Of a DNA stretch of 64,000 nucleotides, positions 20,241 through 33,898 are shown in pieces; position 1 is the first letter of the stretch; each line of letters opens with the position of its first letter. A program made the position numbers and the translations under genes. The notes beneath the pieces were generated by a model. That model searched no databases, was not told where the DNA came from, and saw only the letters and a list, made by a program, of their open reading frames with translations. The stretch is from assembly GCA_036403745.1 (NCBI GenBank), contig DASWQI010000007.1; one strand, written 5' to 3'. Origin of the DNA: Allosphingosinicella sp. (GTDB lineage Bacteria; Pseudomonadota; Alphaproteobacteria; Sphingomonadales; Sphingomonadaceae).

Positions 20241-21045
<805 letters not shown>

Positions 21046-21281
21046 GGCCAGCGCCGCCCGGTGAGCAGCGACGCCGGCGCCTAGCGCCGCCGGAGCAGCG
21101 AACGGAGTCGGCGCCCGCCCGGCCGGCGGGGCGGCGACCCTCGGGCCGCCGAACCCGTCCGACGCGGCGAGGCCGCCCTCGCCGCCCCCTTGGCGCGCAT
21201 CCTCGGGCGCCCGTCCGCCCTGAACCGAAGCCGCGGAAGTTTCGAACTTTCCTGATATAAAAAAACTTCCCTCCCGCCGTC

Positions 21282-21304
21282 GGGCGCCCCGTGCGCCCCT
21301 TTTT
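21282..21304 (+). terminator. candidate rho-independent terminator
   Basis: GGGCGC-CCCGT-GCGCCC followed by CTTTTTG. It lies in an apparently non-coding region about 240 nt downstream of the 20755..21045 gene. Confidence 0.5.
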
Positions 21305-21493
21305 GCGATCCAGCTGCCGTTTGCCCGACCCGCGCCAGTGCGATTCGCACCCGCAGGCCAGATACCGCACAGCTCTCTTGTCGCCTCGAACATAGCATGA
21401 ACCCGCCTGAGAAGCAACCGGCCGACTGCTGGTGGAAGGGCGGTGCAGGCGGAGCCCTCACCTGCCGCGCGAACGAGGCAAAAGGTGCACGCG

Positions 21494-21625
21494 CTGCCGG
21501 GCGACTGCCGTGTCGCAACCGTGTGCTTGCCGGGCGCGTGCCGGGTCCTAACGGGGCGCGTGCCGGGTCGCAACCGTGCGGGTGCCGTGTCGCTGCCGGG
21601 TCCTTGCCGTGCGGGAACCGTGGTG
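21494..21625. repeat. four degenerate 33-bp tandem repeats
   Basis: Units start at 21494, 21527, 21560 and 21593, each beginning (C/T/G)TGCCGGG. Units 1/2 and units 3/4 match at roughly 24 of 33 positions by hand alignment. Confidence 0.7.
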
Positions 21626-21821
21626 GCTCCCGCGGCCGCGGCGAGCGTGCGGTCCCGCCGGCCGAGGGTGGACAGGATCTGCGCGACGACCAGCCGCAAG
21701 GCTTACTGGGACGGCCCCGGCTTCTCGTCCTCCCCATGCGGCGTCGCGCCACAGGGAGGAGCGGGGTCGGAGCCTGCCACCACCTACCCGATACCTGCTG
21801 AACGCGTTATCCTGCGGCCCG

Positions 21822-22010
21822 ATGCACAAAGCCCTCTTCGCCCTCGCCGCCCTCGCCGCCACCGCTTTGGTGGTCGCCCTCGCCTGGGGCGTCTTCGTGC
21901 TGATGAGCGGCGCCCACGCCTTGCCGAGATGGGCGATGCTCGCGATCCTCGCCGCTGTCCTCGCCGCCGGCCAGATCCTGCGCTGGCGCCAGCGCCGGCG
22001 GCGGCTTTAG
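21822..22010 (+). CDS. small two-TM membrane protein (62 aa)
   Basis: In-frame ATG at 21822 (MHKALFALAALAATALVVALAWGVFVLMSGAHALPRWAMLAILAAVLAAGQILRWRQRRRRL) at the end of track ORF 21576..22010. Confidence 0.5.
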   Translation: MHKALFALAALAATALVVALAWGVFVLMSGAHALPRWAMLAILAAVLAAGQILRWRQRRRRL

Positions 22011-22477
22011 ACCGTCTTCCCCGGGCCGGCGGGCACAGTACCGCTCTGCGCCGCCAGCCTCTCCGCATCGGCCGCAAGCTGGGCCATGGTCGCGTCGGCC
22101 TGCGGCAGCTCCCAGGCGAGGTCCTCGACGGCGCGCGCGAGCTTGGTGGCGAGGGCGGCGAGGTCCGGCGCCGGCACGAGCAGCAACCGCTCGAGCGCCG
22201 CATTCTGGGAGCAGGCGAGATCGGAGAAGGCCTCGTCCATGTCCCACTGTTGTGAAAAGGACGCGCCGCGCGGCTCAGCCCGCTTGAACGCTGCGATCTC
22301 AGCCTCGGCGCGCAGCAAGGCCGCAAGCGCCGCCTCCCACGCCGCCTCCAACTCCTCTCCTTCGAGGGGAGAGAGAGGAGCCGCGGTGCGGCGGAGGGTG
22401 AGGGCAGTCGGCGCCCCTACGGCTCCCGCTAGAAGTGCGCGACGCGTGCAGCTATGCTCCCTGGAAGCCATGACCAA
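22007..22477 (-). CDS. hypothetical protein, divergent from the XRE regulator; possible Tat-like N-terminus
   Basis: Track ORF of 156 aa. TRRALLAGAVGAP is twin-arginine-like. The N-terminal part overlaps a short palindrome (CTCCTCT...AGAGGAG near 22343-22370), so the true start is uncertain. Confidence 0.4.
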   Translation of the reverse strand: MVMASREHSCTRRALLAGAVGAPTALTLRRTAAPLSPLEGEELEAAWEAALAALLRAEAEIAAFKRAEPRGASFSQQWDMDEAFSDLACSQNAALERLLLVPAPDLAALATKLARAVEDLAWELPQADATMAQLAADAERLAAQSGTVPAGPGKTV

Positions 22478-22515
22478 GGCTCTCCTGCTCTAGGAGGTGG
22501 GGGTTCTTCTTATTG

Positions 22516-22572
22516 GCATATTACATGCCGGATCGGGAGCGGCGGCGCAAGTGTTTTTTGCATGGAATATGC
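22516..22572. promoter_or_regulatory. two GCAT-N5-ATGC palindromes in the divergent promoter region; the first also fits a GG-N10-GC (sigma-54-like) spacing
   Basis: GCATATTACATGC at 22516-22528 sits within TTGGCATATTACATGCC. GCATGGAATATGC at 22560-22572 overlaps the XRE ATG at 22562. Confidence 0.3.
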
Positions 22573-22801
22573 CGTCTTGACCCCGCGGCAATGCCGGATG
22601 GCACGTGCTGCTTTGCTTTGGTCCCGCGACGACTTAGCCGCGGCCTCAGGGGTGAGTTGGCGGACGATCACGAGGTTTGAGGCGGGGGAGTCAGTGCTGC
22701 CCCCGCGGGTTCAGGCGATGCGGCGGGCGCTGGAGGCCTCCGGAACCGTCTTTATCGACAGCGGCCGTCTCGTCGGCGGTGTTATCCCGCCACGCGACTA
22801 G
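22562..22801 (+). CDS. XRE-family helix-turn-helix transcriptional regulator (79 aa)
   Basis: In-frame ATG at 22562 (MEYAVLTPRQCRMARAALLWSRDDLAAASGVSWRTITRFEAGESVLPPRVQAMRRALEASGTVF) inside track ORF 22454..22801. Confidence 0.7.
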   Translation: MEYAVLTPRQCRMARAALLWSRDDLAAASGVSWRTITRFEAGESVLPPRVQAMRRALEASGTVFIDSGRLVGGVIPPRD

Positions 22802-22963
22802 ATCTTCGCGACCTTTGAAGACGCAGGTTGGCAAAGTACCTATCCATGTGAATGGCACGTCTCGCCCGTTTGAACCCCTGCAATTTCTTACCCGCCACGG
22901 CCACTGCACAAGACACCGACGGAAAGATCCTAACGAAAGCGGCAAGGCGAGATACGGCTTAAG

Positions 22964-25396
22964 CTACCATTCCGGCCGCTCCGGCCGTAGATCAAAAAGC
23001 ACCACCTCGGATAGATTGCGTCTCTTAGATTTGAAGAAAGCAGTCGCGCGTCCTCGCACAAAAGGAGCCACCTCTTCCAAAACGTCATCGACAGAGAGCC
23101 AAAGATGCTTATCAACAGCATCGATCTCCTCGTACATCATGTCCTCGATGCCTAAGCCGACTTCTATCATGACGCCATGGCAGTAGTCTCTCAGTCCGTA
23201 CCAGCTGAACTCGAATACTAGATCGTCGCCACGCAGGCGTGGGCCAATGAGAGCAGATCTGGCTATATCCAGAAGCTCTCCAGACTCTCGTTGATTGAGC
23301 ATCAATCGCTCGTCATCCTGAGCTGGCTCTATAGCGTCGAAGAGACGCGTGAGGAGTGCCGCCGCAACACGAACAGCATACCGCGCCTCATTGACCGTAC
23401 AGCCGCCCCGCAAGAACCCCCCTGGCGCAATTGCGGTGACAAGCAAGGCACCTTCCACTGGCCTTGACCGAGAAAGCTCGCCTGGCGCATTCGCGAGAGC
23501 CGTAGGCCCAGGGTGAAACGACTCACCAAGAGACCTAAGGAGGGCCTTCCAATGAGAGCCCGGCAGCAGGGAATCTGCTGCTTTGTAAGGCGACCCGACG
23601 GCTTCGCACAAGAACCGAAGGTAGTTTACTTTAACCACGCAACAAACTCGGCTAAATGCTTCTATCCGGGGCCGGCCGTCAAACTGCCCTATTTTGTCGG
23701 AGAGGAAGTCATATACCCCCGGGCTGAAAATCCTGTTGTTTTGGGCATGGTCCGCCCCCGACGGTTCTTCTTTGAAGATTCCGAACGCAACGAGGAACTC
23801 TGCGAACGAGCGATGTGGGAAATAGAATATATCACCGGGCTTGCGGTCTAAGAAAGAGCCCGAGAGTGCCTCCCGGAGCATACCCTCATCCTCGTCCTCA
23901 CCATAGTCGGGGAGGGCACGCAGGACGCTCTCTGGAAGCTCATCGGGGGTGAAGAAAGACGCCCCGTCCTTCTCGAGCCAAATCCAGCGAGCTATTCGGC
24001 GAACGAACTCGAAACGAGTATCGTCAGAAAGCTCCTTCCTTGCCTCCTTCATATTCTCCCGTTCAATCAACAGTGCAAAAAACGCCTCGTACAAATTCCA
24101 GCGCGATAGATTTGAGGCTAACGTACTCAAATCACCGCTGCGCGACGATGCGATGTCCGCAAGAAGTTTAACGTGCACTGGACGCGAAAAGAGTTCGGGA
24201 TCTAATTCCACTATTGCACGAATCTGGCGGAGGCAGACGGCCTTCTCGGCGGCCGATATCTCCGGCACAATAGGCTTAGATGCCGAATGGACAACATAAC
24301 GGGTCACGAAACTCTCAATTTCGTCGATCGTGAACTCTTGAAGCTCAAATTCCTGAAATGAGGGCCAGCCGGGTACTGAGACTAACAGGTCGCCCGATAT
24401 GGGCCTCAAGCCCCGCAACGCGTAATTATACTCAGCATCTGAGAGAAAGGCCGACGGACGACCTAGCAGGACGACCTTGGATTTCGGGACAACCAGCTGG
24501 TTCAGTTCTTGCAACTGCAGCCTGAAGTCACCCCATTTCATGGCGTGTTTCATTTCGTCAAAACCATCCAGCACCACGACAAAGCGTCCGCGCTGATTGA
24601 AGTCTGTGAATCTTGAGAAAGAATATCCGCGCACGCTAAATTCACTGGTGAAGAGTGCGCCAAGCAGCCCGTCAAGAGATGCGAACCTGCCGATGTTACC
24701 AAGTTTTATTAGGATAGGCCTCCGAACGTGCGGATCAGCTATAGACTGAGTAGCCAAGTCACTGACAAGCCGCTTCGCGAAGCTCGTCTTGCCAGCGCCA
24801 TACCCACCTAAAATCGCAACTGGAGCAGTCTCGCAAGGATCTGCAGCCCAGTTGCGCAGAGAGTTTATGAGTAAATCTACGTGATCGGATAACTCCCTTG
24901 TGCCGTCTGTCTCATACCATACAGATTTAGCGCGAGCCTCTACATAGTATTGACTCAGCCCGTCCGATGAAAACGAGTCACGGAGTGACGTTATATATGG
25001 AAGTAGTCCCAAGACCTCATTCTCTAGCTCCCAAATGGTTAAGTGACGAATTGCAGGCTGTTCGTCAACGAAAGCCGCCGCGTCGGTTGTAAGGCCATTT
25101 CTGGAGACAATAAGCAACTTACAAGGGTCTTGGAGACCTACGATTCCGGAATAATCCGACCAAACGCGCGCCACATGATCACGAGTGAGTCTCCTTCTAT
25201 AATCTTTGCACTCAACAAGGAGCGTCGTGTCGCGGCCTAAGTCTTTCACCGAGAATACTGCGTCTACTTTCTTACCGGCCACTCTCATCTCGCATTTGCC
25301 TTGGCCATACACCTGTGAGAGGAAGCTCATCGCTTCGTTTCTAAGTGCCGCGCCGGGCACATGGGCATCCGCTAAAAGACTATCAGGAGCGGCCAT
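22964..25396 (-). CDS. NLR-like STAND protein: PD-(D/E)xK nuclease-like N-terminus, NACHT NTPase core and an unassigned C-terminal domain (810 aa)
   Basis: ATG at 25396 preceded by AGGAAG. Motifs: VD45...E62-C-K64; GGYGAGKT (aa 197-204); FVVVLDGFDE (aa 272-281); VLLGRP; FPHRSFAEFLVA (aa 526-537). The region is AT-richer than its flanks. The 1849-aa track ORF continues antisense into acnA and is an artefact. Confidence 0.85.
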   Translation of the reverse strand: MAAPDSLLADAHVPGAALRNEAMSFLSQVYGQGKCEMRVAGKKVDAVFSVKDLGRDTTLLVECKDYRRRLTRDHVARVWSDYSGIVGLQDPCKLLIVSRNGLTTDAAAFVDEQPAIRHLTIWELENEVLGLLPYITSLRDSFSSDGLSQYYVEARAKSVWYETDGTRELSDHVDLLINSLRNWAADPCETAPVAILGGYGAGKTSFAKRLVSDLATQSIADPHVRRPILIKLGNIGRFASLDGLLGALFTSEFSVRGYSFSRFTDFNQRGRFVVVLDGFDEMKHAMKWGDFRLQLQELNQLVVPKSKVVLLGRPSAFLSDAEYNYALRGLRPISGDLLVSVPGWPSFQEFELQEFTIDEIESFVTRYVVHSASKPIVPEISAAEKAVCLRQIRAIVELDPELFSRPVHVKLLADIASSRSGDLSTLASNLSRWNLYEAFFALLIERENMKEARKELSDDTRFEFVRRIARWIWLEKDGASFFTPDELPESVLRALPDYGEDEDEGMLREALSGSFLDRKPGDIFYFPHRSFAEFLVAFGIFKEEPSGADHAQNNRIFSPGVYDFLSDKIGQFDGRPRIEAFSRVCCVVKVNYLRFLCEAVGSPYKAADSLLPGSHWKALLRSLGESFHPGPTALANAPGELSRSRPVEGALLVTAIAPGGFLRGGCTVNEARYAVRVAAALLTRLFDAIEPAQDDERLMLNQRESGELLDIARSALIGPRLRGDDLVFEFSWYGLRDYCHGVMIEVGLGIEDMMYEEIDAVDKHLWLSVDDVLEEVAPFVRGRATAFFKSKRRNLSEVVLFDLRPERPEW

Positions 25397-25742
25397 TTCG
25401 ATCTTCCTAAGCTTGAGGGTTTCGATGTTGAGCCGCACGCGCCCTGCGGTCAATGCGCGCGTCCTGTTTCTGTAGACCCATCTTGTCGCAGGCCGTGTGA
25501 GCACTTTCGAGCGGGATGCGTACTGAAGCTGACACCGGTCGCGGCGGGCGACCAGCCGGCCGCCTCCCCACAGCTGGCGTTCCGACTTTGGAAAGGGGGG
25601 TAAAGGTTGCGGTCCACCTGCGAACCTGGAGCTGCTGCGCCGTGTTTCGCCTCGCATTGTAGGCTGAAACAAGTTCAGCAGGACGGGCGGGCGACTTCCG
25701 GACCCTTCCAACCCCTGCCGTGCGTTGCTAGAGCGCACCCAA

Positions 25743-25801
25743 ATTCCGCAGATTGCGGAATGGCGATTTTCTCCTGCGCATGCCGGACAGCCCGCATGCG
25801 C
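25743..25801 (+). promoter_or_regulatory. two 8-bp perfect inverted repeats in the acnA upstream/leader region
   Basis: ATTCCGCA-GAT-TGCGGAAT at 25743-25761 and GCGCATGC-N10-GCATGCGC at 25776-25801, 19-77 nt upstream of the acnA ATG. Confidence 0.3.
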
Positions 25802-25819
25802 CGTACCGAAAGGCCCCCG

Positions 25820-28540
<2,721 letters not shown>

Positions 28541-33019: not shown

Positions 33020-33898
33020 TCAGCCGAGCGACTGCAGGTTCACGGCCGCCGTCTTGCCGCGGCGATCGACCTCGAGCTCGAACTCGACGCGGTCGCCCTC
33101 GTTGAGGCTCGACATGCCGGCACGCTCGACGGCCGAGATGTGGACGAAGGCGTCGGGCTGTCCGTCGTCGCGGCTGATGAAGCCGAAGCCCTTCATGGCG
33201 TTGAAGAACTTGACGGTGCCCTGGGCCTTTTCGCCGGTCAGCTGGCGCTGCGGTCCACCGCCGCCGGCGCCGCCGGCGCCGCCGAAGCCGCCTTCACGCG
33301 GCTCGCGCGGCGGAGCGCGATCTGTGACCGGCATCGGCTCGCCCTCGATCTTGAGGTCGGTCGCCGAGACGCGGCCGCCACGATCGACGAGGGTGAATTC
33401 GAGCGGCTGGCCTTCGGCAAGGCCGGTGAGGCCCGCCTGCTCGACCGCCGAAATGTGGACGAACACGTCCTCACCGCCGTCGTCGCGGACGATGAAGCCG
33501 AAGCCCTTTTGCCCGTTGAAGAATTTGACGATGCCCTTGCCCTGGCCGACGACCTGGGGGGGCATGCCGCCGCCACCGCCGCCGCCGCCGCCGCGGAAAC
33601 CACCGCCGCTGCCGCCGCCGCCGCCGAAGCCGCCGCCACCGCCGCCGCGGTAACCGCCGCCGCCGCCGCCACGATCGCCGTAGCTGCTGCCGCCGCCGCC
33701 GAAGCCGCCGCGATCGCCGCCGCCGCCGCCGTAGCCGCCACCGCCGCCACGGTAGCCGCCGCCGCCGCCGCCGCCGCCGAAGCCGCCCCGATCCTCAAAT
33801 CCGCCGCCGCCGCCGTAAATATCGTCGCCGCCGAAACCGTCGCGCTTGTCCCTGCCGCGCCCACCGCGCTCGCCGCGGCGTCCTCTATCGAAACCCAT
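33020..33898 (-). CDS. cold-shock protein with two CSD domains and an N-terminal RGG/Gly-rich region of about 111 aa
   Basis: Track ORF of 292 aa. Two KGIVKFFN..KGFGFI..VFVHISAV cold-shock modules are joined by a Gly-rich linker. The N-terminus consists of RGG/YGGGG/FGGGG repeats. An alternative start at M112 (about 33565) would remove the Gly-rich arm. Confidence 0.8.
   Translation of the reverse strand: MGFDRGRRGERGGRGRDKRDGFGGDDIYGGGGGFEDRGGFGGGGGGGGYRGGGGGYGGGGGDRGGFGGGGSSYGDRGGGGGGYRGGGGGGFGGGGGSGGGFRGGGGGGGGGMPPQVVGQGKGIVKFFNGQKGFGFIVRDDGGEDVFVHISAVEQAGLTGLAEGQPLEFTLVDRGGRVSATDLKIEGEPMPVTDRAPPREPREGGFGGAGGAGGGGPQRQLTGEKAQGTVKFFNAMKGFGFISRDDGQPDAFVHISAVERAGMSSLNEGDRVEFELEVDRRGKTAAVNLQSLG

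What the first reader, a model, noticed from the sequence alone, without database searches (positions are those of the whole stretch)
22964..25396. Low-GC single-gene insert: nuclease-NACHT (STAND) protein with an orphan C-terminal domain, a candidate NLR-like anti-phage sensor
The minus-strand ORF is 810 aa, with its ATG at 25396 after AGGAAG.
- Residues ~40-65 carry a PD-(D/E)xK-type signature (D45 ... E62-C-K64), as in Mrr/restriction-endonuclease-like folds.
- GGYGAGKT (aa 197-204), FVVVLDGFDE (aa 272-281), VLLGRP (aa 309-314) and FPHRSFAEFLVA (aa 526-537) reproduce the Walker A, Walker B, sensor and winged-helix His motifs of NACHT/STAND NTPases.
- The last ~265 aa show no TPR/WD40/LRR-type periodicity and nothing I can assign.
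The composition is clearly foreign. Positions 24301-24360 have 26 G+C out of 60, against 43 of 60 for 26041-26100 in the neighbouring acnA. The gene is wedged between an XRE regulator and the acnA promoter region, with no integrase, transposase or tRNA nearby. Effector-NTPase-sensor proteins of this layout are the architecture of bacterial NLR-related (bNACHT/Avs) defence proteins. The C-terminal sensor here may define an uncharacterised specificity.
Basis: partly seen in the sequence, partly recalled or inferred. Interest (0 to 1): 0.85.

Follow-up and report, generated by a model that had tools for sequence, protein, structure and literature searches.

The report
Solitary nuclease-NACHT bacterial immune-sensor gene
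A recently acquired, stand-alone gene beside acnA encodes a bacterial relative of animal NLR immune sensors, with a DNA-cutting head, a NACHT switch and a fast-evolving tail of unknown fold; it belongs to an untested family of a well-known kind of anti-phage protein.

Summary
Pfam NACHT passes its curated cut-off. The NACHT-specific Walker B signature (DGFDE) and the D45/E62-x-K64 nuclease triad are invariant across 101 aligned family members. A confident AlphaFold2 model (pLDDT 92) matches NOD2 and NLRP3 best.

The C-terminal 265 aa are not orphan. They occur in about 78 protein clusters, nearly always at the end of about 800-aa nuclease-NACHT proteins. They are by far the most variable region and have no fold match in PDB or BFVD.

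Three of ten homologue loci lie directly beside complete Gabija, SIR2-HerA or PDC-S49 systems. Five or six lie in ICE or integrase contexts, and the rest are solitary like this one.

The best reading is a single-gene bacterial NLR-related (bNACHT/Avs-type) defence protein that degrades DNA after trigger-induced oligomerisation. The architecture (restriction-endonuclease domain + NACHT) is already catalogued and is validated for bNACHT25/32, but this family is not detectably related to those outside the NACHT module. It is a new member of a known kind, of moderate interest. No function was tested, and the insertion could not be confirmed by an empty site.

The parts
22964..25396 (-). Complete CDS, 810 aa plus stop: nuclease-NACHT-sensor protein (bacterial NLR-related)
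   Evidence: Translation. There are 411 homologues, and the closest outside its own 90%-identity cluster is 44% identical. AF2 model pLDDT 92.3, pTM 0.88.
25403..25408 (-). Shine-Dalgarno-like AGGAAG, 6 nt upstream of the ATG at 25396
   Evidence: Sequence read. Homologue N-termini align with this start rather than with NCBI's GTG 25438.
25037..25351 (-). N-terminal PD-(D/E)xK (Mrr-like restriction-endonuclease fold) effector core, aa 16-120. Catalytic D45, E62 and K64 are encoded within 25205-25264.
   Evidence: Mrr_cat scores 19.7 bits over aa 41-117, below the gathering cut-off of 21. E36, K42, D45, E62, K64 and H118 are invariant in the 101-sequence and 20-sequence alignments. The predicted topology is H16-30, E34-39, E42-52, E55-64, H72-88, E92-98. 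15 of 120 listed homologues carry a precomputed PF04471 hit.
24842..25036 (-). Helical and beta-hairpin extension of the nuclease domain / linker, aa 121-185
   Evidence: AF2 secondary structure. Intermediate conservation, entropy 2.24 bits. In bNACHT25 the domain annotated as REase likewise spans residues 2-178.
23762..24829 (-). NACHT NTPase module (NBD-HD1-WHD), aa 190-545. Walker A is at 24785-24808, Walker B DGFDE within 24554-24583, sensor-1 GRP within 24455-24472, and WHD His (H528) within 23786-23821.
   Evidence: Pfam NACHT E 6.3e-7, above the gathering cut-off. Invariant residues are G200, G202, K203, D277-E281, G312-R313-P314 and H528-R529-S530. Foldseek top hits are NOD2 and NLRP3. 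hhalign to a bNACHT32-like protein covers this module only.
22967..23761 (-). C-terminal putative sensor domain, aa 546-810: helical bundle followed by an alpha/beta subdomain. Family-specific and hypervariable. Its first helices may correspond to the HD2 subdomain of NLRs.
   Evidence: Domain-only AF2 model pLDDT 90.5, pTM 0.89. No Foldseek match in PDB (best E 1.1) or BFVD (best E 0.94). Entropy is 2.7-3.1 bits against 1.25 in the NBD, and identity to the query is 15-21% against 59%. The profile finds only 78 clusters among 1.84 billion representatives, at the C-terminus of similar proteins.
22800..25500 (.). Low-GC island (about 48-60% GC in 100-nt windows, except one at 65% at 23400-23499; surrounding sequence is mostly 62-78%), coextensive with the gene plus about 160 nt of 3' flank and about 100 nt of 5' flank
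   Evidence: No flanking direct repeats above chance. No tRNA.

Best explanation
The gene encodes a single-polypeptide bacterial NLR-related (bNACHT / antiviral-STAND type) defence protein that was acquired horizontally.

Proposed mechanism:
1. At rest the protein is a closed, ADP-bound monomer.
2. A phage-derived trigger (a phage protein, or a phage-induced change in a host factor) engages the hypervariable C-terminal domain.
3. The NACHT module exchanges nucleotide. The residues expected to act are Walker A K203, Walker B D277/D280/E281, sensor-1 R313 and WHD H528.
4. The protein oligomerises, which brings the N-terminal PD-(D/E)xK nuclease domains (D45/E62/K64) together.
5. The nuclease domains then cleave DNA indiscriminately, destroying phage DNA and/or aborting the infected cell.

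Shown here: the domain identities, the intact and invariant catalytic motifs, the fold, the family-wide hypervariability of the C-terminus, the foreign composition, and the defence-island or mobile-element contexts of homologues.

Inferred by analogy with bNACHT25/32 and Avs3/4: the trigger, the oligomerisation, the DNA cleavage and the protective effect.
For: NACHT identity:
- Pfam NACHT is above its cut-off.
- The D[GAS]hDE signature, which Kibby et al. use to define NACHT, is present as DGFDE and is invariant.
- Foldseek ranks NOD2, NLRP3, NLRP1 and NAIP5 above Apaf-1, CED-4 and ORC. Avs4 (Mrr-like nuclease plus STAND NTPase, as I recall it) matches over 790 columns.

Nuclease:
- The D...ExK triad is invariant.
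- The predicted core topology is canonical.
- Mrr_cat is near threshold and is recorded for 15 of 120 listed homologues.

Sensor-like tail:
- It has constant length (about 240-290 aa in 99 of 100 homologues; one has 316) and a confidently predicted fold, yet only 15-21% identity.
- One family member (P0171) keeps the NACHT module and this tail but has a different N-terminal module, SMEK_N, which matches PADLOC's Argonaute-associated REase model at E 2e-35.
- Plasmid relatives keep the nuclease and NACHT modules but carry a diverged or unrelated tail.

Context of ten homologue loci:
- Gabija is directly adjacent in L005 (GajA 2.7e-266, GajB 2.5e-237).
- PDC-S49 is adjacent in L092 (1.5e-158).
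- SIR2-HerA is adjacent in L095 (2e-178 and 2e-235).
- L088, L089 and L096 are ICE, relaxase or integrase cargo.
- The gene's GC is below that of its flanks in 7 of 7 loci measured.
- There is no conserved partner gene, which fits a single-gene system.

Precedent: bNACHT25/32 have a PD-(D/E)xK domain, a NACHT module and a C-terminal domain. They protect E. coli, degrade DNA on infection, and lose defence with D48A (PMC12169576).
Against: - No experiment exists on this family.
- PADLOC gives no hit, but this is uninformative because a bNACHT32-like positive control also gives none.
- In this window the gene is not in a defence island and has no mobile-element marker nearby.
- Mrr_cat is below Pfam's gathering score for this protein.
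- The N- and C-terminal domains show no detectable similarity to those of bNACHT32-like proteins, so the analogy rests on architecture rather than on homology outside the NACHT module.
- No homologue was found in 50,697 phage records. This neither helps nor hurts the case.
Confidence: 0.8

Rival explanations
1. The protein serves mobile elements rather than the host against phages. It would be an exclusion, addiction or inter-element competition module carried as ICE or plasmid cargo, sensing a rival conjugative element or plasmid protein and cutting DNA.
For: Half of the homologue loci are ICE, T4SS, relaxase or integrase cargo (L005, L088, L089, L092, L096). Distant relatives are on conjugative plasmids. 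No phage-borne copy was found.
Against: Defence systems in general ride on such elements. Direct neighbours are anti-phage systems. Several copies, including this one, are solitary chromosomal genes far from any element.
Confidence: 0.08
2. It is an NTP-dependent, Mrr-like (type IV-like) restriction enzyme. The C-terminal domain would read DNA (for example modified DNA) directly, and the P-loop module would regulate or power cleavage, with no protein trigger.
For: The nuclease is Mrr-like. Several homologue tails end in Arg/Lys-rich stretches (sequences).
Against: The NTPase is a bona fide NACHT/STAND switch with a winged-helix His, not a translocase such as McrB. The tail matches no known DNA-binding fold. 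Its hypervariability resembles the diversifying C-terminal regions described for other bNACHT proteins, which Kibby et al. attribute to a host-phage arms race.
Confidence: 0.05
3. It is a non-immune STAND signalling protein or a decaying passenger gene with no current function.
For: In the window it sits among housekeeping genes, with no regulator or partner demonstrably linked to it.
Against: The reading frame is intact. Every catalytic residue is invariant across a family at 32-44% identity. It carries an effector nuclease rather than a DNA-binding output. Homologues lie in defence islands. The identical gene is present in a second metagenome.
Confidence: 0.05

Closest known systems
bNACHT25 / bNACHT32 (E. 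coli; clade 6 of Kibby et al.; PMC12169576 and bioRxiv 10.1101/2022.07.19.500537)
   Same: The three-part layout is the same, with almost the same boundaries. bNACHT25 has REase 2-178, NACHT 185-558 and a C-terminal domain 575-747. This protein has about 16-185, 190-545 and 546-810. Both are single-gene systems with a PD-(D/E)xK effector, and the catalytic Asp lies at a similar position (D48 against D45). This is the expected functional model: infection-triggered DNA degradation.
   Different: Only the NACHT module is alignable (18% identity, hhalign probability 85%). The N-terminal profile does not match the bNACHT32-like REase domain (probability 0.5%). The C-terminal profile does not match NCH1 (probability 0.65%). 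The tail here is longer (265 against about 175 aa) and ends in an alpha/beta subdomain. The hosts are Alphaproteobacteria. Whether activation depends on DnaJ is unknown.
REase/Mrr_cat+NACHT proteins of Kibby et al. clade 2 (for example WP_044834066.1 Thalassomonas, WP_157567192.1 Hymenobacter, PKN68616.1)
   Same: These proteins have an Mrr_cat/REase domain at about residues 17-130, followed by a NACHT module annotated up to about residue 700-740, with no named C-terminal domain. This is the architecture and approximate size seen here.
   Different: The accessions of this family that I looked up are absent from that table. As far as the table shows, none of these nuclease-bearing clade 2 entries carries a tested bNACHT name.
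Avs4 (antiviral STAND type 4; PDB 8dgf)
   Same: Avs4 has an N-terminal Mrr-like nuclease and a STAND NTPase. Foldseek aligns 790 columns of the full model to it (E 5e-9). It is a single-gene pattern-recognition receptor that oligomerises on binding a phage protein (own knowledge of Gao et al. 2022).
   Different: Avs4 is about 1,540 aa long and, by my recollection of Gao et al. 2022, has a large TPR-like sensor that binds the phage portal. Its NTPase ranks below the animal NACHT modules as a structural match. This protein has a 265-aa non-repeat tail with no match to it.
Animal NLRs (NOD2, NLRP3)
   Same: These are the best structural matches for the NACHT module (E 6e-11 to 1e-9). They share the Walker B DGFDE-type signature and the WHD His.
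   Different: They have no LRR sensor equivalent here, and they carry CARD/PYD adaptor domains in place of an enzymatic nuclease effector.

Membership tests
NACHT clade of STAND NTPases | Walker A GxxxxGK[ST] | tested here: met
   GGYGAGKT at 197-204. G200, G202 and K203 are invariant in 101 sequences.
NACHT clade of STAND NTPases | Walker B with the D[GAS]hDE signature that separates NACHT from other STANDs (definition quoted from Kibby et al.) | tested here: met
   D277-G278-F279-D280-E281, every residue invariant.
NACHT clade of STAND NTPases | Curated profile match | tested here: met
   PF05729 scores 29.8 bits against a gathering cut-off of 26.7, E 6.3e-7, over aa 192-319. PF05729 is also recorded for most of the 120 listed homologues.
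NACHT clade of STAND NTPases | NBD-HD1-WHD fold with a conserved winged-helix His | tested here: met
   H528 is invariant. Foldseek top hits are NOD2 and NLRP3 NACHT modules, ahead of Apaf-1, CED-4 and ORC.
PD-(D/E)xK / Mrr-like nuclease | D ... (D/E)xK catalytic triad on an alpha-beta-beta-beta-alpha-beta core | tested here: met
   D45, E62 and K64 are invariant and are placed on strands 2 and 3 of the predicted core.
PD-(D/E)xK / Mrr-like nuclease | Curated Mrr_cat profile match | tested here: inconclusive
   PF04471 scores 19.7 bits, below the gathering cut-off of 21. 15 of 120 listed homologues have a recorded hit. The N-terminal profile finds no PDB sequence.
PD-(D/E)xK / Mrr-like nuclease | Metal-dependent DNA cleavage | not testable with these tools
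   Needs biochemistry.
bNACHT25/32 family (Kibby clade 6) | Homologous REase effector domain | tested here: not met
   hhalign of N-terminal profile A3 against the N-terminus of a bNACHT32-like protein (85% identical to the first 95 residues of bNACHT25): probability 0.5%. Caveat: the template is a single sequence.
bNACHT25/32 family (Kibby clade 6) | NCH1 C-terminal helical domain | tested here: not met
   hhalign of C-terminal profile A2 against residues 575-753 of the bNACHT32-like protein: probability 0.65%.
bNACHT25/32 family (Kibby clade 6) | Close NACHT-module relationship | tested here: inconclusive
   318 columns aligned at 18% identity, probability 85%, E 6.5e-6. This shows NACHT-level homology only. 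No tree was built.
Avs4 | Large TPR-like sensor that recognises the phage portal | tested here: not met
   The tail is 265 aa with no repeat families in Pfam and no PDB fold match, Avs4 included.
Anti-phage defence system (functional class) | Enrichment next to known defence systems or on mobile elements | tested here: met
   Met for the family: 3 of 10 homologue loci have a complete Gabija, SIR2-HerA or PDC-S49 system as the direct neighbour, and 5-6 are ICE or integrase cargo. Not met in this window, where all neighbours are housekeeping genes.
Anti-phage defence system (functional class) | Protection against phage that depends on the NTPase and effector motifs | not testable with these tools
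   Needs phage challenge of wild type against K203A and D45A/E62A/K64A mutants.

The most novel reading that the evidence does not exclude
The C-terminal 265 aa form a previously undescribed sensor fold: a helical bundle plus an alpha/beta subdomain, with no PDB or BFVD match, confined to about 78 protein clusters. On this reading it defines a new bNACHT/Avs family, centred on Alphaproteobacteria, whose trigger is not among the roughly two dozen currently mapped. The trigger could be a protein of alphaproteobacterial phages or GTA-like particles, or a perturbed host factor.
Probability: 0.45. Interest if true: 0.5.

Novelty: new member of a known kind. Interest (0 to 1): 0.35.

Why it matters
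Bacterial STAND/NLR-like sensors are the prokaryotic counterparts of animal and plant NLRs, and each sensor domain reports on a different viral feature. The 2026 survey (PMC13581612) counts at least 90 structurally distinct defence-associated families and 684 sensor structural clusters. Triggers are known for only about two dozen of these, almost all studied in enterobacteria. This family offers a compact (810 aa), confidently modelled, single-gene example from Sphingomonadales, Caulobacterales and Rhodobacterales, with a sensor of unassigned fold. Finding its trigger would extend the map of what bacteria recognise in phages beyond E. coli phages. The locus also shows that such genes can land as bare single-gene inserts next to core metabolic genes, where island-based defence finders would miss them.

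Tried and rejected
- PADLOC on the protein gave only a P-loop-level LeoA hit (E 0.06). I first read this as 'not a known system'. A bNACHT32-like positive control and two plasmid relatives also gave nothing, so the library evidently has no model that detects this class, and the negative result carries no weight.
- NCBIfam gave only an E 0.18 match to DS8_antiphage. phmmer and profile searches against PDB sequences gave nothing meaningful.
- The synteny test for insertion used 80 acnA loci from GTDB species. Downstream synteny (acnA-cyclase-amidohydrolase) is kept, but upstream of acnA nothing matches the window in any relative. No empty site is available, so the test is inconclusive rather than supportive.
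- The only other contig carrying the gene (L098, a JGI metagenome) is the same strain: identical outside a 420-bp tract in acnA.
- Flanking direct or inverted repeats that could be att or target-site-duplication remnants: only chance-level matches, for example a 25-nt pair at 72% identity (22857 and 25694). No tRNA. No convincing sigma-70 promoter or terminator for the gene.
- XRE as cognate regulator: rejected. The two genes are convergent, XRE has GC3 73% against 56% for the NACHT gene, and XRE is absent from all 12 homologue loci checked.
- Membership in the bNACHT25/32 family: rejected for the N- and C-terminal domains.
- Accessions of family members (KDP95711, WP_170546533, WP_183218348 and others) were not found in Kibby Table S1 or in the held supplements of the 2026 survey. 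The Nature version has no supplements held.
Full report
**1. Observation**

The minus-strand ORF 22964-25396 encodes 810 aa. The ATG at 25396 lies 6 nt downstream of AGGAAG (25403-25408). The mechanical ORF list runs this frame on to 28513 (1849 aa), because the antisense strand of GC-rich acnA has no stops. That extension is not coding: GC3 switches from 56% to the host pattern at the ATG, and homologues start at the equivalent residue. NCBI's model (HEY0311124.1, 824 aa, Allosphingosinicella sp. MAG) uses GTG 25438.

The gene is 53.2% GC against 67.6% for the window, and GC3 is 56% against about 90% in acnA, nadE and clpB. It is the only 2.4-kb stretch of the window below 60% GC. The low-GC island runs from about 22800 to about 25500.

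**2. Domains**

- *NACHT.* Pfam NACHT passes its gathering score (29.8 against 26.7 bits). Mrr_cat falls just short (19.7 against 21 bits).
- *Conserved residues.* An alignment of 101 family members (32-44% identical to the query) shows these invariant residues: E36, K42, D45, E62, K64, H118 (nuclease); G200, G202, K203 (Walker A); D277-G-F-D-E281 (Walker B); G312-R313-P314 (sensor 1); H528-R-S530 (winged helix).
- *NACHT signature.* DGFDE is exactly the D[GAS]hDE signature that Kibby et al. use to separate NACHT from other STAND NTPases.
- *Full-length model.* AlphaFold2 on this alignment gave pLDDT 92.3 and pTM 0.88. The N-terminus has the alpha-beta-beta-beta-alpha-beta core of PD-(D/E)xK nucleases, with D45 on strand 2 and E62-x-K64 on strand 3.
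- *Fold matches.* Foldseek against the PDB ranks animal NLR NACHT modules first (NOD2 E 6e-11, then NLRP3, NLRP1, NAIP5). Avs4 (8dgf), which I recall as Mrr-like nuclease plus STAND NTPase, matches at E 5e-9 over 790 columns. Apaf-1, CED-4 and ORC rank lower.

**3. The C-terminal 265 aa**

- *No assignable family.* There is no Pfam, NCBIfam or PDB-sequence match.
- *Predicted fold.* Modelled alone with 28 sequences, the domain is again confident (pLDDT 90.5, pTM 0.89). It is a helical bundle followed by an alpha/beta subdomain. It has no Foldseek match in the PDB (best E 1.1) or in BFVD (best E 0.94).
- *Not orphan.* A profile of the domain, scored against 1.84 billion representative proteins, finds 78 clusters. 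In every full-length hit the domain occupies about residues 530-810 of an approximately 800-aa protein. The short hits examined are gene fragments; P0144, for example, begins inside the winged-helix motif.
- *Conserved length, variable sequence.* Its length is about 240-290 aa in 99 of 100 homologues, with one at 316. It is the most variable part of the protein: column entropy is 2.7-3.1 bits against 1.25 in the NBD, and identity to the query is 15-21% against 59%. Kibby et al. describe the same pattern for the C-terminal region of bNACHT01-like proteins.
- *Caveat.* The first helices after residue 545 may correspond to the HD2 subdomain of NLRs rather than to the sensor proper. I could not inspect the Foldseek alignment ranges to settle this.

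**4. Modularity**

- One member (P0171, 1017 aa) keeps the NACHT module and this tail but begins with a SMEK_N domain (E 3e-40). That domain matches PADLOC's Argonaute-associated REase model (E 2e-35). This looks like an effector swap.
- Plasmid-borne relatives share the nuclease and NACHT modules at 31-34% identity. The tail of the Paraburkholderia protein is only distantly related (hhalign probability 88.7%). The tail of the Rhizobium etli protein is not detectably related (probability 0.3%).
- Both observations are what one expects from an effector-switch-sensor chassis.

**5. Genomic context**

- *In the window.* The gene is solitary. Neighbours within about 12 kb are clpB, an SDR, doxX, AHSA1, a GLF/glycosyltransferase, nadE, cinA and hemerythrin on one side, and acnA, a cyclase, an amidohydrolase, a tandem cold-shock protein and terC on the other. 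There is no tRNA, integrase, transposase or meaningful flanking repeat.
- *XRE gene.* The XRE gene (22565-22801) is convergent with the NACHT gene, has GC3 73%, and is absent from the 12 homologue loci checked. It is not a partner.
- *Ten homologue loci.*
  - Three have a complete defence system as the immediate neighbour: Gabija in Caulobacter ginsengisoli (GajA 2.7e-266, GajB 2.5e-237), PDC-S49 in Ruegeria arenilitoris (1.5e-158), and SIR2-HerA in Hoeflea (2e-178 and 2e-235).
  - Five or six are cargo of ICEs or integrase islands. Markers include a trb/virB operon, MobA/TraI, ArdC, and integrase or resolvase genes.
  - Three or four are solitary between housekeeping genes, for example just upstream of rpsL in Parasphingorhabdus, or between thiC and DUF188.
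- *Composition and partners.* The gene's GC is lower than that of its flanks in all seven loci measured. No neighbour is conserved, so this is a single-gene system.

**6. Insertion test**

Among 80 species-level relatives, synteny downstream of acnA is conserved. It stops exactly at the acnA 5' end (window about 25784-25820), and nothing upstream of acnA in any relative matches any part of the window. No empty site could therefore be found. Horizontal acquisition rests on composition and on the family's patchy, element-associated distribution. A second metagenome (JGI 3300035154) carries the identical gene in the identical locus.

**7. Comparison with known systems**

- *bNACHT25/32.* The architecture REase/Mrr_cat + NACHT is listed in Kibby et al. 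Table S1 in clades 2, 3 and 6. Clade 6 bNACHT25/32 (REase 2-178, NACHT 185-558/569, NCH1 575-747) protect E. coli, degrade DNA on infection, require D48, and sense infection through DnaJ (PMC12169576).
- *Proxy used for comparison.* I recovered a bNACHT32-like protein (Enterobacter kobei plasmid, 753 aa) whose N-terminus is 85% identical to the first 95 residues of bNACHT25.
- *Result of the comparison.* Only the NACHT modules align (18% identity, E 6.5e-6). Neither the N-terminal profile (probability 0.5%) nor the C-terminal profile (probability 0.65%) matches. The window protein works like bNACHT25 by architecture but is not a member of its family.
- *State of the field.* The 2026 survey (PMC13581612) counts 589 STAND clades, at least 90 defence-associated structural families and 684 sensor clusters, most of them uncharacterised. 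This family very probably sits among them.

**8. Verdict**

The most likely function is a trigger-activated, oligomerising DNase of the bacterial NLR-related class (confidence about 0.8). Every mechanistic step beyond domain identity is inferred.

It is a new, untested family of a well-known kind, with a sensor domain of unassigned fold. That is useful for trigger discovery in Alphaproteobacteria but would not surprise a specialist. Interest: 0.35.

Noticed in passing
window 22964-28513 (-): The mechanical ORF containing the gene runs 1,039 codons further upstream, antisense through acnA, because the GC-rich antisense frame has no stop codons. NCBI's gene model starts at GTG 25438 (824 aa). 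The ATG at 25396 with its AGGAAG and the homologue N-termini favour 810 aa.
   Followed up: yes
window 22515-22573: A 14-nt inverted repeat (GGCATATTACATGC / GCATGGAATATGCC, 93% complementary, 31 nt apart) brackets the start of the small XRE/HTH_3 gene (ATG 22565). It looks like an autoregulatory operator. The XRE gene is divergent from an unannotated 156-aa ORF (22007-22477, -) with no Pfam match.
   Followed up: partly
window ~25784-25820 and loci L008-L087: In 80 Sphingomonadales and other alphaproteobacterial genomes, synteny to the window begins exactly at the acnA start and continues downstream (cyclase, amidohydrolase). The region upstream of acnA differs in every relative. The acnA 5' boundary is therefore a recurrent rearrangement or insertion point.
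   Followed up: partly
window 26557-26974 (inside acnA) vs L098: A second assembly of the same strain (JGI 3300035154) is identical over 14.5 kb except for 33 clustered differences, including indels, in a 420-bp tract of acnA. This suggests a recombination tract or a population-mixture assembly artefact.
   Followed up: no
P0171 (1017 aa): This family member has the PD-(D/E)xK core replaced or preceded by a SMEK_N domain. That domain matches PADLOC's Argonaute-associated 'Aga_REase-PNTD1-PNTD2' model (E 2e-35). An effector module appears to be shared between short-pAgo systems and this NACHT family.
   Followed up: partly
L090/L091 (Parasphingorhabdus), upstream of the homologue: A 61-aa 'dnstrm_HI1420' HTH gene (antitoxin-like) sits just upstream of the NACHT gene, which is itself wedged directly upstream of the rpsL-rpsG-fusA-tuf operon. 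This is another solitary insertion next to core genes, with a small HTH gene nearby as in the window.
   Followed up: no
window 20500-22250: This stretch has very high GC (70-77%) and many overlapping ORFs on both strands, with no Pfam match for the two candidates tested (20755-21045 +, 22007-22477 -). AT skew reaches +0.40 over 20250-21000. Its coding status is unclear.
   Followed up: no
window 33020-33898 (-): A 292-aa protein with two cold-shock domains also gives a sub-threshold match to the S1/CSD-like domain 2 of TOTE conflict systems (27.5 bits overall, no domain passing on its own).
   Followed up: no
L006 (Enterobacter kobei plasmid pSTW0522-51-1): The bNACHT32-like gene lies between IS903B/IS26 elements and a vapBC toxin-antitoxin pair on a conjugative plasmid. 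PADLOC-DB v2.0.0 gives it only weak hits to unrelated P-loop models (best E 5.6e-4, HerA), so bNACHT25/32-type proteins escape that library.
   Followed up: yes
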